Below, one piece after another: positions 1-7,425 of a DNA stretch of 7,425 nucleotides. Position 1 is the first letter of the stretch. The number at the start of each line of letters is the position of its first letter. The notes below the pieces were generated by a model. It had not been told where the DNA came from. It was given only the letters and a program-made list of their open reading frames with translations, and searched no databases. The position numbers were made by a program, and so were the translations under genes. Source of the DNA: Tubiluchus corallicola. Taxonomy: Eukaryota > Animalia > Priapulida. The stretch lies in contig JAQGDQ010002230.1 in NCBI GenBank assembly GCA_030141605.1, positions 1 through 7,425 on the forward strand, given 5' to 3'.

Positions 1-440
1 ACTCATGCTGTTATAATAGTAACAGTTTTAACAACTAGCTAGAACCTTACTTAGTTCATTTTTTCTTGTTCCCAACCAAGATCTAGCTAGTTAATCACTC
101 TATGCATAATTAAGTAAAGTCCAGATAAAACAACTGAAGTTACTAAAGAACTGTGACGCTCAGGCTTATTTTAGGTCAGGTTATGTAACTAGTTCCTACT
201 GTTATAATTCTACCATTCTGTCAATTTTTATAAAAGAACTTTAGTTAAGATGTTTAACGGTATAATGACAGAAGCCAACTTGTTCTGAAATCAGATTTCA
301 CCTGTACATTCAATGATACTGTTTATGCATTACTACTATATCATGTGATTGAAGCCACTTAGACGAAATTTTGGCTGTTCAGTTCGCCCAGGTATTCCGC
401 TTTAAGTTGTCGAGTTAAGCGGACGTTCACATGTCATAAA

Positions 441-515
441 ATGATGGTTTAGTAGTAACGGTGCTTGCTTGTAGAAAAGCGATCTGTCTGCATGGTTACA
501 ATTCTTTGTCAGCAT
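441..515 (+). mobile_element. Possible decayed tRNA-derived SINE head
   Basis: A-box-like tggtttagtag (445-455) and a weak B-box-like ggttacaattct (494-505) at plausible spacing. No tail or TSD seen. Confidence 0.25.
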
Positions 516-877
516 TTTGAGAATTTAGTGATATTTACTTTCAGGTAATTAGTTACATGGCTAATTTTCTGGGGGAAACTTTGGGCAAAAGCACATCGAA
601 AGAACATAGCATCTTCCGTTGTGTGAATTTATTGATTACTGAGTTGAATGTGGTTTGTCCATCATTGAAATAGGTTTCTACAGATTTTGTAAACGCTATA
701 ATTCTAGGTGTATGTCAATTTTCCTTGACCTACATGTGACGGTTGTTGTTAAGACACATTGGCGTGGTACGCTTGACCTTTGGTCTACGCCAACAGCGTG
801 TGTAAAAAACGAAACTGTAAACATGTTTACCAAACATGTTTACCACGTAGCAATAAAACAGACAGCACAATACTTAC

Positions 878-1069
878 GCTCCGGCCAACATGTGGACTTT
901 GTCCACTTCCTCTTCAACTGGCTTAAGCTCTCTTTCAATATTTTCGTGTTGTTTCTGTATCGACCTGACCGCTTGTAGACTCTTGCCGAGGTCCATGTTG
1001 TCAAGCAAATCGGACTTTTCCCTGATTCGTTCACGTGTGTCGTCGCACTTCTGATCAAACAAATCCAAA
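878..1069 (-). CDS. SPTBN5: Spectrin-repeat exon D (192 nt, phase 2 to phase 2), apparently out of order
   Basis: Acceptor cctcctttcag|T, donor GGAGC|gtaagt. Encodes LDLFDQKCDDTRERIREKSDLLDNMDLGKSLQAVRSIQKQHENIERELKPVEEEVDKVHMLAG(A), helix A-B of a spectrin repeat ('DLGK.L..V...Q..H...EREL.PVE'). Confidence 0.85.
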
Positions 1070-1288
1070 CTGAAAGGAGGTCAACATCGTTAACGCAGGA
1101 AGAGTATTTGTTTTACAGATAAAGCGGCCATCTTGTCTTTAACGTTGAAAGACGTTATTTATCAAAAGCCCAACTTTTTAAAATGAATTTAAAAAATTAG
1201 TTAATCGTTAGCACTGGATTCTGAAGACATCCGGATTCAACGAACGAAAGGCATCAACAGGCAATAATTTAACTGCGTAATAAAAAGC

Positions 1289-1345
1289 CAAAGGTTCCTG
1301 GTTCTAATCCAGGTTTAGCGTCTTCTTTTAGCATTTTCTTTTCTT
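1289..1345 (+). other. Isolated tRNA T-arm/B-box remnant
   Basis: aaggtt-CCTGG-ttctaat-CCAGG (5-bp stem, 7-nt loop, 1297-1313) followed by a T-rich tract. No D-arm or acceptor stem. Confidence 0.3.
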
Positions 1346-1619
1346 CCCATCGGCAAACTTTATTTTTGAAAATTTAATACTCCATGAGTTTCTTCAAATG
1401 CAATTTAACCACGAACTCTGAGCGTACCAAAAAGTGAGCTATCCGGTTTTTCATAACGACGCCAGAACAAACGTTTTAGGTCAGTCACACAGCTAATCTA
1501 TTTAATTGTTTGTTGTCTGTGTCTTCGTGTAGTATCTCATTTTAGGATTGTTTGTTTTTTAACAATCTAAAACAAGTTAGAATGAATAAATATTTAAAAT
1601 TAATTTGCAAAATCAGCAC

Positions 1620-2150
1620 TACGACACCCCCCCCCCCGTGAATAAATCTGCCATCATACCTGGAAGCAGCATTCTCAGAGTTACGACACCCTCCACCCCT
1701 CCCCCCATGAATAAATCTGCCATCATACCGGGAAGCAACATTCTCGGAGTTACGACACCCTCCACCCCTTCCCCATGAATGAATCTGCCATCATACCTGG
1801 AAGCAGCATTCTCAGAGTTACGACACCCTCCCCCCATGAATGAATCTACCATCATACCTGGAAGCAGCATTCTCAGAGTTACGACACCCTCCACCCCTCC
1901 CCCCATGAATAAATCTGCCATCATACCTGGAAGCAGCATTCTCGGAGTTACGACACCCTCCACCCCTCCCCCATGAATGAATCTGCCATCATACCTGGAA
2001 GCAGCATTCTCTGAGTTACGACACCCTCCACCCTTCCCCCATGAATGAATCTGCCATCATACCTGGAAGCAGCATTCTCTGAGTTACGACACCCTCCACC
2101 CCTCCCCACATGAATGAATCTGCCATCATACCTGTAAGCAGCATTCTCGG
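1620..2150. repeat. Minisatellite, 8 units of 61-69 bp
   Basis: Unit about tacgacaccctccacccctccccccatgaatgaatctgccatcatacctggaagcagcattctcagagt, starting at 1620, 1682, 1751, 1819, 1880, 1949, 2017 and 2085. Length varies in the C-tract. Confidence 0.97.
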
Positions 2151-2662
2151 AAAGTTAGCCCATGTTATACCCCCGTTCATTACTCATTAATGGCCCACTT
2201 ACTCCATGCTTTCTTATTATTCTTCCCACACACATTATTCTCACATCTAGATGTGCATTATAATGAACACACAGAACAAATTTCCACAGTTTAGCTGTTA
2301 GTCAGCAAAGTTATGGCCTTATGCTCAAACAAAATCAAAGTTTCTATTGCCATTACATGTACACAGGACATTGTAACAAAATTACCTATTTAGTAAGATT
2401 TCAAATCAAATCAAGAATAAGCAATCTTGCACTCAAGATGGGTCGCAATAATACTTTTGTAAGCACTACTGCTTTTGGAAATACAGGTAAAAAAGAAACG
2501 CGCTGGACTCGTCCAAGAGCTCTGCTGTCTTGAAAAGATTTCCGCTATTTACTTTCTTCGCACTTTTTTCACAATCGCATTAAATGATGAAAAGCACGTC
2601 ATTCGATTAGATCACTTTAATGATTTTTTCTATAAAACTGCCAGTTAATTGATTGAAATTAC

Positions 2663-2822
2663 CTGCAGATCCAGGTTGTTCAACAGCCTCTGCTGTTTAT
2701 CCCTCCAGCCGTCGGAGATGTCGTTACGTACGTCGACGACGCGGGCGAGAGTTTGCGTCAGCTCCGAAGAGTCGGGCGTCTTGCGGAGCAGCTTATTGGC
2801 TAAATTTTCTATCTTCTCAAAC
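2663..2822 (-). CDS. SPTBN5: Spectrin-repeat exon C (160 nt, phase 2 to phase 0)
   Basis: Acceptor cattctag|G (completes AAG Lys with exon B), donor CAG|gtaatt. Encodes FEKIENLANKLLRKTPDSSELTQTLARVVDVRNDISDGWRDKQQRLLNNLDLQ; 'GW..KQ..L....DLQ' is typical of betaH-spectrin as recalled. Confidence 0.87.
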
Positions 2823-3126
2823 CTAGAATGTTCAAATGTCAATACAAAACTGTAATAAGTATATAACAAGGTTAAGTTAGAGGAATGGACAGTTCAAATA
2901 GGCAGCTAGTTAATGCAACTATCACTAATATACTATAATAGTCAATATACTAACCAAATTACATATAAAGAAACAACGGTAAACTGGCTACGCGATTTTG
3001 ATATATTTGGCATCCATTATTTAAAATATAACAGTTCTTTGTTCTGTTGGGGGTTTATTCTGTACAATTTTCATATTTTAAGATTTCCCATATCTCTTGC
3101 GTTCACAATGAAGAAGTAACATGTAA

Positions 3127-4183
3127 GAATTATGGACAATGAAAGCGCAAAACAAATCAGAAATAGATGCATTTCAAAGAAAAAATTACAGGAATATTCT
3201 AGGCATAAAATAGCCATAGAAAATATCAAACCAGGAGATCTGGATAATAAAGTGAAGGCAGAGGAATGGACAATTAAAATCAAATGCAGAAGATTAAGAT
3301 GGATAGGACGTGTTGTACGACTATCAGATGACAGTCCATTAAAATTGCTTTCAAAGAAGTATTAAAGAAAGAAAAGAAACCACAAGGAGGACAGCTGCTG
3401 ACTTACATCAATTTCATCTCAAAAGATCTTATCAACACACCATTAGATATCAAAAATACAGAGACATGGGAGGTTGCGGGTGACGGGACAGCATGGAGTA
3501 AGTGGGAGGTTGTGGGTGACAGGACAGCATGGAGTAAGTGGGAGGTTGTGGGTGACAGGGCAGCATGGAGTAAGTGGGAGGTTGTGGGTGACAGGGCAGC
3601 ATGGAGTAAGTGGGCGGTTGTGGGTGATAGGGCAGGCAGCATGGAGTAAGTGGGAGGTTGTCGGTGACAGTGCAGTATGGAGTAAGGGGAGGTTGTGGGT
3701 GACGGGACAGCATGGAGTAAGTGGGAGGTTGTGGGTGACAGGGCAGCATGGAGTAAGTGGGCGGTTGTGGGTGATAGGGCAGGCAGCATGGAGTAAGTGG
3801 GAGGTTGTCGGTGACAGTGCAGTATGGAGTAAGTGGGAGGTTGTGGGTGACAGGGCAGCATGGAGTAAGTGGGCGGTTGTGGGTGATAGGGCAGGCAGCA
3901 TGGAGTAAGTGGGAGGTTGTGGGTGACAGTGCAGCATGGAGTAAGTGGGAGGTTGTGGGTGACAGTGCAGCATGGAGTAAGTGGGAGGTTGTGGGTGACA
4001 GAACAGCATGGAGTAAGTGGGCGGTTGTGGGTGATAGGACAGCATGGAGTAAGTGGGAGGTTGTGGGTGACAGTGCAGCATGGAGTAAGTGGGAGGTTGT
4101 GGGTGACAGTGCAGCGTGGAATAAAATGATTTCAAGGGTCATGTCACAGAACGTGGGACTCCAGAGATGATGATGACGATGAT
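3127..4183 (+). mobile_element. 5'-truncated, degenerate non-LTR retrotransposon (RTE-like LINE 3' end), antisense to the host gene
   Basis: Across frameshifts and stops it reads ELWTMKAQNKSEIDAFQRKNYRNILGIK*P*KISNQ / IKCRRLRWIGRVVRLSDDSP / KKEKKPQGGQLLTYINFISKDL...WEVAGDGTAW...WNKMISRVMSQNVGLQR*. This matches the RTE-type post-RT C-terminus (E.WT..DAF.R..LR.IL.I.W...ISN; RRLRW.GHV.R; K.P.G...W...DL; A.DR..W). It ends in a (GAT)n tail at 4166-4183. Confidence 0.85.
3467..4125 (+). repeat. Minisatellite, 18 units of 36 bp (three 40-bp variants, one 35-bp variant), inside the LINE
   Basis: Unit tgggaggttgtgggtgacag(gg/tg/ga)cagcatggagtaag = WEVVGDRAAWSK. The 40-bp units start at 3611, 3758 and 3870. 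Confidence 0.97.
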
Positions 4184-4386
4184 AAGTAGGTTTATGACGT
4201 GTGACACCAGAAATAAAATAAAATGAATAAAATCGTACAAATTTTCTGTACATCAACAGAATTAGGTAAAAAAGATTAACGCATGTTTCATTTTCAAATT
4301 AATTCCCTCATAAGCAATCGAATTAATTAAAAACACATAAAAACATCAATTAAACGTCATCTCTGAGTGTTTCTGCACCAACTTAC

Positions 4387-4514
4387 TTATCTTCATGTGC
4401 TTTGATGTCGTCGGCCAAATCTTGATGCTTCTTCACTTGTTCCTCAGCGCTTGCTACATCCTTGGCCGGTTCATCGTGTTGCAACAGGCTCTTGATTCCG
4501 TCCGCCCAGTTGAG
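4387..4514 (-). CDS. SPTBN5: Spectrin-repeat exon B (128 nt, phase 0 to phase 2), not shown in the ORF track
   Basis: Acceptor tttatgtgtttgtag|CTC, donor GATAA|gtaagt. Encodes LNWADGIKSLLQHDEPAKDVASAEEQVKKHQDLADDIKAHED(K), with the helix A Trp and the 'DV.SAE.L.KKH..L..DI.AH' spectrin motif. In phase with exons A and C. Confidence 0.88.
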
Positions 4515-4685
4515 CTACAAACACATAAAGTTCAAATGTCGACATTCGTGCGCTTTCATAAGATCTAATTGTAATACACTCATATCTCGGTTTGCCGGAC
4601 AAAAGCGGGGAGAGGTCAGTCCGAATTTGCCGATTGTCCGAATTTACCAATACTAAGCTGATATAGTAGGTGTTGTGTATTAGAC

Positions 4686-5171
4686 CAGGGATGAGAATGA
4701 CAAATTGCAAAAAAACTCTGAAACAGGCCGGGGGTTTGGGGGCCGCGTCGGTAGCAACAAATTGCAATTTTGTGACCATAGAGAGCCTCTAGGTGGACTT
4801 AAAATATCAATTACCTTGTTTCATGCATAATTTAAAATACCCAGCTATCAAGGATACATGATACCTAATTGTCTCAAAAACGGCTAAGTACTGGCCGCTC
4901 CTATGCAAAAGTATATAAAAACTGTCTGCAGTTGACTCAAATAACTCCGCACAATTGATTCTATATTTTTATACATAGAGATATACACGTGGTTACACTG
5001 ATGTACGGGATGTAAACAAAGTGACGGCCAGCCAACTAGCAGTCAGTTTGTGAAATAATGTACTGGGTCCGTAAAAATTTTCTCAACGAACTTACGCGAT
5101 TTACAAAAATGGCACTACTGGTCTTCCAAAAACTCGGAATTCCGCGTATCCGGGGAAAATTCTTATCCCTG
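4686..5171. mobile_element. Non-autonomous hAT-type DNA transposon, 486 bp
   Basis: 13-bp TIRs cagggatgagaat (4686-4698) and attcttatccctg (5159-5171), 12/13 match. Perfect 8-bp TSD tattagac at 4678-4685 and 5172-5179. CAGGG ends with an 8-bp TSD are hAT hallmarks. No transposase ORF. Confidence 0.9.
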
Positions 5172-5395
5172 TATTAGACTCATGGTAATGTAGAATCAAT
5201 CGCCTAATTGTCTCAAAAATGTCTAGTACGGGCCGCTTCTATGTAAAAGTATATGAAAACTGTCAGAATTGTCTCAGGTAACTCTGCATCATTGAGTATA
5301 TTTTTATATATAGAGATATACGGTTGATTACACTGATGTAATGATGTAAACAAAGTGATGGCCCGCCATCTAGTGATCAGCTTGCAGTATACTGG
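4864..5395 (+). repeat. Diverged direct repeat of about 200 bp (4864-5066 vs 5203-5395)
   Basis: Both copies begin cctaattgtctcaaaaa and share tatatttttata, atagagatatac, ttacactgatgta and gatgtaaacaaagtga; roughly 80% identical by eye. Confidence 0.92.
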
Positions 5396-5871
5396 ACGTT
5401 TCAACGGTCCAGATTTTGTCCAATTCTTCTGATATCCGTACAACCGAGATATAAGAGCGTACTATAGTTAAGAATTGCTTTCAGTAAAACAAATTCGAAG
5501 TTAAATTGCAATTGTTAACTCCTCCAGGACCGTAAGCGTTTAGGGCATTTTGCATTAGTTCATGAACTCCTATTTTTAAGGAGAAATTCCTGTAACAAGG
5601 TGAAACGAGCTTAATTTCTCCTTGGATGATCGGTTGCTTTTTCCTGGAACGGCAGCCGACTTGGGCTGCAAGAAGCAGGCGATCAATAAATTAGGGTGTA
5701 TGATCACACGAGTGTGCACCAGACTAAGCTACTCGATAGGCTAAGTTGGAGTGCCTGAAAAGGACATCTTTTTCTTAATTTTATCCAATTAAATCACTTA
5801 TAAATACTTAAAGAAGTAGCATTATTGGATAACCGAGATTCCTCTGAATCAAACAGTGCATAATAAGTAAT

Positions 5872-6574
5872 CACTTAGTTATGTCTGTGCTCATTTAGTT
5901 ATGTCTGTGCTCATTTAGTTATGTCTGTGCTCATTTAGTTATGTCTGTGCTCATTTAGTTATGTCTGTGCTCATTTAGTTATGTCTGTGCTCGTTTAGTT
6001 ATGTCTGTGCTCGTTTAGTTATGTCTGTGCTCGTTTAGTTATGTCTGTGCTCGTTTAGTTATGTCTGTGCTCGTTTAGTTATGTCTGTGCTCGTTTAGTT
6101 ATGTCTGTGCTCGTTTAGTTATGTCTGTGCTCGTTTAGTTATGTCTGTGCTCATTTAGTTATGTCTGTGCTCATTTAGTTATGTCTGTGCTCATTTAGTT
6201 ATGTCTGTGTTCATTTAGTTATGTCTGTGCTCATTTAGTTATGTCTGTGCTCATTTAGTTATGTCTGTGCTCATTTAGTTATGTCTGTGCTCATTTAGTT
6301 ATGTCTGTGCTCGTTTAGTTATGTCTGTGCTCATTTAGTTATGTCTGTGCTCGTTTAGTTATGTCTGTGCTCGTTTAGTTATATCTGTGCTCATTTAGTT
6401 ATGTCTGTGCTCATTTAGTTATGTCTGTGCTCATTTAGTTATGTCTGTGCTCATTTAGTTGTGTCTGTGCTCATTTAGTTGTGTCTGTGCTCGTTTAGTT
6501 ATGTCTGTGCTCGTTTAGTTATGTCTGTGCTCATTTAGTTATGTCTGTGCTCATTTAGTTATGTCTGTGCTCGT
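5872..6574. repeat. Minisatellite, 35 units of 20 bp
   Basis: Unit c(a/g)tttagttatgtctgtgct, with no indels and a few point variants. Confidence 0.98.
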
Positions 6575-6688
6575 ACAGAAGCAGAATAGTCACAAGTCTC
6601 ATAAGACCTACTCTGAGTGGCGCAATCGTGACAGAGTTAAGAAACAGTTGTTAACATGCGCATAGAAGAAAAGGAAGTCATAATTTAC

Positions 6689-6848
6689 CAGATCCTTGGC
6701 ATCGGCAATGAGTATCTTCTGTCCGTGGGCTTCCTCGATAAATGCTTTCTTGTCATCGGCTTTCTTCTTCAAGTCATTCCAGTCATTCAACAGTTTGGCT
6801 TCTTTGTTATCAACATGTTTAGCTTGTTCCGGGTAAGAATTCTTTACC
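6689..6848 (-). CDS. SPTBN5: Spectrin-repeat exon A (160 nt, phase 2 to phase 0), probable beta-heavy spectrin (karst/SPTBN5-like)
   Basis: Acceptor ttttccttgttttag|G, donor CTG|gtaaat. Encodes VKNSYPEQAKHVDNKEAKLLNDWNDLKKKADDKKAFIEEAHGQKILIADAKDL, i.e. helix B/C of a spectrin repeat with the conserved Trp. Resembles recalled karst 'VKNAYP...W...IE..VGQQ' motifs; orthology is from memory. Confidence 0.85.
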
Positions 6849-7425
6849 CTAAAACAAGGAAAAACACTCAGATTTTGACACACGAAGAAGAATTTCTTGA
6901 AGTAGAACTAGAAATTTGAAGCAAAATTTAAAAAAGCGAGATACATTTTGTTTTGTAGTAAAAGTTAACCAAAGTTAATCATAATCAGTGTTTGTTTTGG
7001 TTTTATACAATTTCTGCACGTTTTCCAAGAACCTACTTATCATATTAACTGTGTGGCAAGACGGGAACTATGTCCGCTATTAAATGCGGTCATATAAGAC
7101 GTTACAAAGACAGTGTGTCAGCTACATTTGGAAGTGCGAACATCTTACGACAGTGAGGAAACAGCTGGTGGTAGTGTAGACAAACCCACATGACTTTCTT
7201 ATTAGTCACCAACCCATTATATGACGAGGATAGGTGTTGCTTACCCCAGAAAGGAAATGTAAACAACACGACATCAACAACAGACAAGTATAATTCATTT
7301 CCTGCCAGTTTAGCCACTGTAAGCAGTGATGAAATTAAACAAGCATAAACCTTTTCACAGTTCCAGCAACTGATGATGATCGTGAAAAGGTCAAAGGTTA
7401 AGTGTACACTTGACAACGCCTCGCA

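What the first reader, a model, noticed from the sequence alone, without database searches (positions are those of the whole stretch)
878..6848. Permuted exon order in a betaH-spectrin gene (A-B-C followed by the exon that should precede A)
Transcription order on the minus strand is A, B, C, D. Exon C ends in phase 0 and exon D's canonical acceptor is phase 2, so C-D is frameshifted. D's phase-2 end (GC) joins A's first base (G) to give ...VDKVHMLAG-A-VKNSYPEQ..., completing one spectrin repeat and matching the order I recall for karst (ELAPVE.KV.RV..LG.SVKNAYP). I found no exon for the repeat expected after ...DLQ in 1070-2662. D+A+B+C total 640 nt, about two spectrin repeats. Inference: an intragenic tandem duplication, an extrachromosomal circle or circularly permuted contig (base 1 joined to 7425 would give a D-A intron of about 1.45 kb), true exon scrambling, or an assembly mis-join. 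The breakpoint lies in 1070-2662.
Basis: partly seen in the sequence, partly recalled or inferred. Interest (0 to 1): 0.85.

Follow-up and report, generated by a model that had tools for sequence, protein, structure and literature searches.

The report
Circular contig mimics scrambled spectrin exons
Four ordinary exons of a beta-heavy spectrin gene appear out of order because this record's last base runs on into its first, so it is a cut-open circle in normal gene order, most likely closed by the assembly software at a minisatellite rather than in the animal.

Summary
Exons A, B, C and D have the stated coordinates and phases; A-B-C-D is frameshifted, while D-A-B-C is a stop-free 213-aa frame. 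Homologues fix the order: in karst-like betaH-spectrins the exons fall at offsets 0/64/117/160 as D-A-B-C. No extra exon lies in 1086-2662. New result: contigs of a high-copy repeat that run off base 1 continue with the window's last letters (26 of 30 across the join, last 17 exact), with no terminal overlap. The record is therefore a circle opened inside the 1454-nt D-A intron, and the exons are not scrambled. The only abnormal junction, C to D, narrows to 1669-2225, a 68-bp minisatellite plus an 85-nt stretch that no listed contig spans. Depth looks single-copy. My odds: false circularisation by the assembler 0.5, real tandem duplication collapsed to a circle 0.27, real extrachromosomal circle 0.15, native scrambling about 0.02. 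Long reads across 1600-2300 would decide. The scan had no look-alike. Interest is low.

The parts
878..1069 (-). Exon D, first in true order; helices A-B of a spectrin repeat, phase 2 to 2
   Evidence: own-position profile 78.5 bits against 31.0 for the repeat after C
1..877 (-). First part of the D-A intron, mostly high-copy repeat
   Evidence: GT donor after 878; summed contig depth far above the single-copy parts over 1-812
6849..7425 (-). Second part of the D-A intron (1454 nt with the first part)
   Evidence: AG acceptor before 6848; length
7409..7425 (.). Window end that continues into bases 1-13 inside one copy of a high-copy repeat: the point where the circle was opened
   Evidence: loose ends before bases 2-14 in 4 of 4 runs; 26 of 30 letters across the join, last 17 exact; no terminal overlap
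6689..6848 (-). Exon A, phase 2 to 0
4387..4514 (-). Exon B, phase 0 to 2
2663..2822 (-). Exon C, last in true order, phase 2 to 0
1669..2225 (.). Interval holding the abnormal C-to-D junction
   Evidence: D-side contigs run 862-1668 and C-side contigs 2226-2941; no listed piece or joint bridges the interval
1620..2148 (.). 68-bp minisatellite, about 8 units; likely homology for the closure
   Evidence: the same unit runs into a different flank in runs X2 and X3 (loose ends behind 1805 and 2003)
2141..2225 (.). 85-nt stretch without contig cover; holds an 18-24 nt inverted piece of the 36-bp unit of intron B-C
   Evidence: depth bins with arithmetic; inverted repeats

Best explanation
The window is a circular record of four ordinary consecutive betaH-spectrin exons (true order D-A-B-C) opened inside the D-A intron, and the circle was likely closed by the assembler at the 68-bp minisatellite. 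Shown: the exon order, the end-to-start continuity, and the junction interval 1669-2225. Inferred: the intron before D and the intron after C each carry a copy of the minisatellite, or a similar repeat, in the same direction, so an assembly graph could step from one to the other and emit the 7.4-kb loop as a circle. The chromosome would then hold a normal single-copy gene. The circular reading alone I put at about 0.95; the confidence below is for the whole statement.
For: (1) Loose ends before base 4 (X1 24 contigs, X2 20, X4 20), base 14 (X1 18, X2 16) and base 2 (X3 3, more diverged) read like the window's end. The match is 26 of 30 across the join; the chance for a given 17-mer is 1.7e-11, the best match elsewhere in the window is 11 of 17, and there is no terminal repeat. 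(2) The 27 best-scoring of 118 homologues are all betaH-like; 24 of these 27 place A 64-65 residues after D, and 11 of the 12 proteins in which C could be placed have it at D+160. (3) No listed contig spans 1669-2225 in the four DNA runs, and no joint is listed there. (4) X1 single-copy contigs have depth 144-208 and array variants 58-87, about half, which fits two haplotypes of one locus; X2 has 5-8. (5) C-D at the canonical sites is frameshifted. (6) Long-read assemblers report false circles often; up to 77% of one assembler's circular contigs in a sample had clipped reads (bioRxiv 10.1101/2025.04.22.649783, passages).
Against: The end-to-start evidence comes from other copies of the repeat, not from reads of this locus. 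The hole at 2141-2225 is weak: the tool filters records, and X1 also lacks cover at single bases 861 and 2404, which look like heterozygous sites, so 2141-2225 may be a dropped bubble. No loose end shows the native continuation of either intron, and a second array in the other intron is not shown. The tool warns that depth is not copy number. Two versions of exon D in one sample (9 synonymous differences) could be two duplicated copies. The paper read concerns microbial metagenomes ('eukaryot' occurs 0 times), and the assembler of this record is unknown.
Confidence: 0.5

Rival explanations
1. A real intragenic tandem duplication of D-A-B-C, probably from unequal crossing-over between minisatellite copies in the two flanking introns, collapsed by the assembler into one circular unit. 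Transcripts would skip the extra block (C donor to the next phase-0 exon), be frameshifted, or use the cryptic acceptor before base 1050.
For: It predicts the same circle and junction. X1 and X2 contigs both start exactly at 2226, a possible branch point. Two exon-D versions differ at 9 synonymous sites (chance of all being synonymous about 6e-7). The array has degenerate units at both ends.
Against: No junction-spanning contig at depth about 150. Depth gives no sign of extra copies (weak). X1 and X2 also share contig starts at 2918 and 3224, the first at a listed indel, so a shared start need not mark a junction. The exon-D variant contig continues in the same intron, which fits alleles equally well.
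Confidence: 0.27
2. A real extrachromosomal DNA circle of 7425 bp, excised by recombination between the two introns and present in a minority of cells.
For: Exact end-to-start closure. A rare molecule would leave the junction absent from short-read contigs. A repeat sits at the junction.
Against: A rare circle would seldom give enough overlapping long reads to form its own contig (inference). No read-level support is available.
Confidence: 0.15
3. A circle was opened at another point and re-inserted elsewhere, leaving a linear permuted pseudogene fragment A-B-C-D.
For: The mechanism is described for the human genome (PMC7188851, abstract) and gives this exon order.
Against: The record would have to end exactly at both insertion edges, yet its ends abut with no flank. 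All four exons keep open frames and splice sites.
Confidence: 0.04
4. Native exon scrambling: the chromosome holds A-B-C-D in this order and the mRNA is rebuilt by trans- or back-splicing.
For: Only the linear order in the record.
Against: Joining base 7425 to base 1 restores an ordinary 1454-nt D-A intron through one repeat copy, so nothing needs unscrambling.
Confidence: 0.02

Closest known systems
Invertebrate betaH-spectrin (karst / SPTBN5 type)
   Same: D-A-B-C aligns end to end, nearly without gaps, to the two-repeat segment of these proteins; best five at 36-42% identity. It falls in a 97/95 clade with 18 of 19 same-region rows.
   Different: Only two of the protein's repeats are present; CH, SH3 and PH domains lie outside the window; no close relative was found.
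Premature circularisation and repeat-derived circular contigs in long-read assemblies (bioRxiv 10.1101/2025.04.22.649783; passages read)
   Same: A short circular record that omits the rest of its locus, with a repeat at the closure and no supporting contig there.
   Different: That work treats microbial metagenomes; here it is an animal nuclear gene, and read clipping could not be tested.
Scrambled exon junctions from tandem duplication, trans-splicing or back-splicing (PMC4238349; passages read)
   Same: A downstream exon is followed by an upstream exon.
   Different: Here the order is in intron-containing DNA, so back-splicing and reverse transcription are excluded; only the DNA-level causes remain.
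eccDNA-mediated duplication with circular permutation (PMC7188851; abstract read)
   Same: Permuted order of a gene fragment through a circular intermediate.
   Different: No insertion flanks are seen; the record is the whole circle.

Membership tests
betaH-spectrin (karst/SPTBN5) | Spectrin repeats | tested here: met
   Pfam PF00435 on D above cut-off and on B just below; position profiles hit all four exons
betaH-spectrin (karst/SPTBN5) | Repeats orthologous to betaH rather than to alpha or conventional beta spectrin | tested here: met
   blastp up to 169 bits against betaH, at most 108 against alpha; clade 97/95 in a 60-row tree. The homologue set was fetched with a betaH query, which biases it.
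betaH-spectrin (karst/SPTBN5) | N-terminal CH domains, internal SH3, about 30 repeats, C-terminal PH domain (architecture recalled; seen in homologues) | not testable with these tools
   Outside the window; no genome is held
Circular or circularly permuted record | Last base continues into first base | tested here: met
   shown through other copies of the repeat, not locus-specific reads
False circularisation by an assembler | No read supports the closing junction | tested here: inconclusive
   No listed contig over 1669-2225 in 4 runs, but these are filtered contigs, not raw reads
Tandem duplication | Junction at genomic depth and raised copy number | tested here: inconclusive
   No junction contig; depth has no single-copy reference
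Extrachromosomal circular DNA | Physical circle, resistant to exonuclease | not testable with these tools
   Needs a bench test
Native scrambled or trans-spliced gene | Linear chromosomal order differs from mRNA order | tested here: not met
   Closure of the ends restores a normal D-A intron

The most novel reading that the evidence does not exclude
A real, segregating tandem duplication of almost exactly two spectrin repeats in a betaH-spectrin gene, made by minisatellite recombination and spliced in frame through the cryptic acceptor before base 1050 (adding 207 aa). The two synonymous-only versions of exon D would be the two copies: spectrin rod lengthening caught in progress.
Probability: 0.07. 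Interest if true: 0.5.

Novelty: not a real feature. Interest (0 to 1): 0.15.

Why it matters
As an artefact it is a caution: small circular records from host-rich assemblies can be loops of animal genes and can look like scrambled genes or circular elements. Checking whether a record's end runs into its start settles the order cheaply. If the junction is real, it is one more intragenic duplication or DNA circle, and interesting mainly because the unit is almost exactly two spectrin repeats.

Tried and rejected
No whole genome is held, so the flanks and second copies could not be searched. Single-exon protein searches found nothing: exon D 0 of 21 candidates, exon A 0 of 30. The exon C search of representatives gave 2 weak unrelated hits, dropped. 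The Atlas gave only a generic spectrin cluster at low recognition. The PDB search gave only alpha and beta spectrins. No relative in viral contigs, 0 of 9 candidates; 1 of 297 in metagenome contigs (L001). No RNA holder listed and run X6 laid nothing, so splicing is untested. Only 1-3460 was laid, so 3461-7425 has no contig evidence. The uncovered stretch 2141-2225 proves nothing alone. A missed phase 0-to-2 exon was rejected. A reverse-transcribed circular RNA was rejected because introns are present. A terminal k-mer overlap was rejected. Rfam gave 2 matches below gathering score, treated as chance. Paper searches: no paper held all of betaH-spectrin, karst, exon and duplication; two searches were seen as listings only and not used; I opened one paper each. 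Supplements were not consulted. Earlier scan findings: none by sequence, one unrelated by words.

Full report
Observation. Joined in written order they carry 6 stops in the A frame; joined as D-A-B-C they give 213 residues without a stop. Pfam Spectrin matches D above its cut-off and B just below; A and C have no Spectrin match on their own.

Identity and order. Searches with single exons failed, but exon D found one locus among 297 candidate stretches of metagenome contigs (L001). L001 holds a 2305-aa open frame with CH, SH3 and spectrin domains, and D-A-B-C aligns to it as one colinear piece (E 3e-27). That region retrieved 118 proteins, including entries named as karst or SPTBN5. Ranked by score against D-A-B-C, the first 27 are betaH-like; 24 of the 27 place exon A 64-65 residues after the start of D. 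Of the 12 proteins in which exon C could be placed, 11 have it at D+160; the twelfth is a vertebrate SPTBN5 in which C and D hit unrelated repeats. Over all 118, 68 had both D and A placed and 42 of those had them adjacent; the misses are mostly alpha-spectrins, where each exon picks a different repeat. Profiles from 28 invertebrate betaH proteins score D at 78.5 bits for its own position and 31.0 for the repeat that follows C, and find nothing better than E 2 in 1086-2662. A 60-row tree puts the window's protein in a 97/95 clade with 18 of 19 same-region betaH rows. The set was fetched with a betaH query, so it is not an unbiased sample, and at 42% best identity it does not identify the animal.

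The record is a circle. No genome is held. Four of six listed public runs hold part of the window, three of them from one sample. Laid on 1-3460, bases 1-812 behave as a high-copy repeat. Contigs that run off the left end continue, in 4 of 4 runs, with letters like the window's right end. The consensus matches the joined ends at 26 of 30 letters, the window's last 17 exactly. The best match of those 17 letters elsewhere in the window is 11, and the ends share no direct or inverted overlap. A linear fragment would not begin and end at adjacent positions of one repeat family by chance, so the record is a circle with its overlap trimmed (inference). Closing it gives an ordinary 1454-nt D-A intron. 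This evidence comes from other copies of the repeat; I had no reads of this locus across the join.

The remaining junction. D-side contigs are continuous from 862 into the 68-bp minisatellite (to 1668 in X2), and C-side contigs run from 2226 to 2941. No listed piece bridges the interval and no joint is listed there. The depth bins imply no cover at 2141-2225 in X1, X2 or X3. The minisatellite has about 8 units with degenerate ends, and in X2 and X3 the same unit runs into a different flank, so it occurs elsewhere in the genome. Against reading much into the hole: the tool filters contigs, and X1 also lacks cover at single bases 861 and 2404, which look like heterozygous sites. No loose end shows where either intron natively continues.

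Mechanism. The simplest account is that both flanking introns carry the repeat in the same direction and the assembler stepped across it, emitting the loop as a circle. Such false circles are common in long-read assemblies of microbial metagenomes (bioRxiv 10.1101/2025.04.22.649783; 12 of 15 passages shown). X1 depth is 144-208 on single-copy contigs and 58-87 on array variants, which fits two haplotypes of one locus, though the tool warns that depth is not copy number. The same geometry is what recombination between the repeats would give in the cell, as a tandem duplication or an excised circle, and contigs cannot tell these apart. Tandem duplication is a known DNA-level cause of scrambled exon junctions (PMC4238349, passages), and permuted re-insertion of circles is described in humans (PMC7188851, abstract). 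My odds: false closure 0.5, collapsed duplication 0.27, DNA circle 0.15, re-inserted permuted copy 0.04, native scrambling 0.02.

A result that cuts the other way. The X1 contig over 862-1617 differs from the window at 9 places, all in exon D and all synonymous third positions, while the X2 contig from the same sample has none. That is about 0.25 changes per synonymous site, with chance about 6e-7 that all nine are synonymous, and the same contig has no difference in the adjoining intron. Alleles or duplicated copies would both explain it. If the duplication is real, an in-frame route exists: a phase-0 acceptor before base 1050 would add 207 residues, about four short of the 211-residue two-repeat period of the homologues (inferred). 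No RNA was available to test it.

Verdict. The origin of the circle is undecided and most likely technical. One full-text search for betaH-spectrin, karst, exon and duplication together found no paper, and the scan's earlier findings had no look-alike. Interest 0.15.

Noticed in passing
window 916-1048: Two versions of exon D in one sample differ at 9 sites, all synonymous, while the same contig shows no difference in the intron 1049-1617. Divergent alleles, gene conversion or duplicated copies.
   Followed up: partly
window 2193-2217: An 18-24 nt inverted piece of the 36-bp minisatellite unit of intron B-C lies inside the uncovered stretch next to the junction.
   Followed up: partly
window 5871-6572 and 3467-4124: A 20-bp minisatellite (35 copies, 97% matches) in intron A-B and a 36-bp minisatellite (18 copies) in intron B-C.
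   Followed up: no
window 3120-3362 (+): An 81-aa stop-free stretch that resembles the end of a LINE reverse transcriptase (resemblance recalled; no Pfam match); contig depth is high from 3133 to 3460.
   Followed up: partly
window 1285-1316: A 32-nt piece shared with other loci, with loose ends on both sides in X1 and X2; it looks like a tRNA-derived SINE remnant (recalled B-box likeness; no Rfam match).
   Followed up: partly
window 4864-5063 and 5203-5397: A degenerate direct duplication with spacing of about 335-339 nt in intron A-B.
   Followed up: no
L001 3266-10180: A betaH-spectrin gene read as one uninterrupted 2305-aa frame on a 56% GC metagenome contig; the searched region is 70% identical to a mite protein.
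   Followed up: partly
window 1555, 2466 and 2575 (run X3 loose ends): Some X3 loose ends look like sequencing adapter (recalled motif), so they say nothing about the locus.
   Followed up: no
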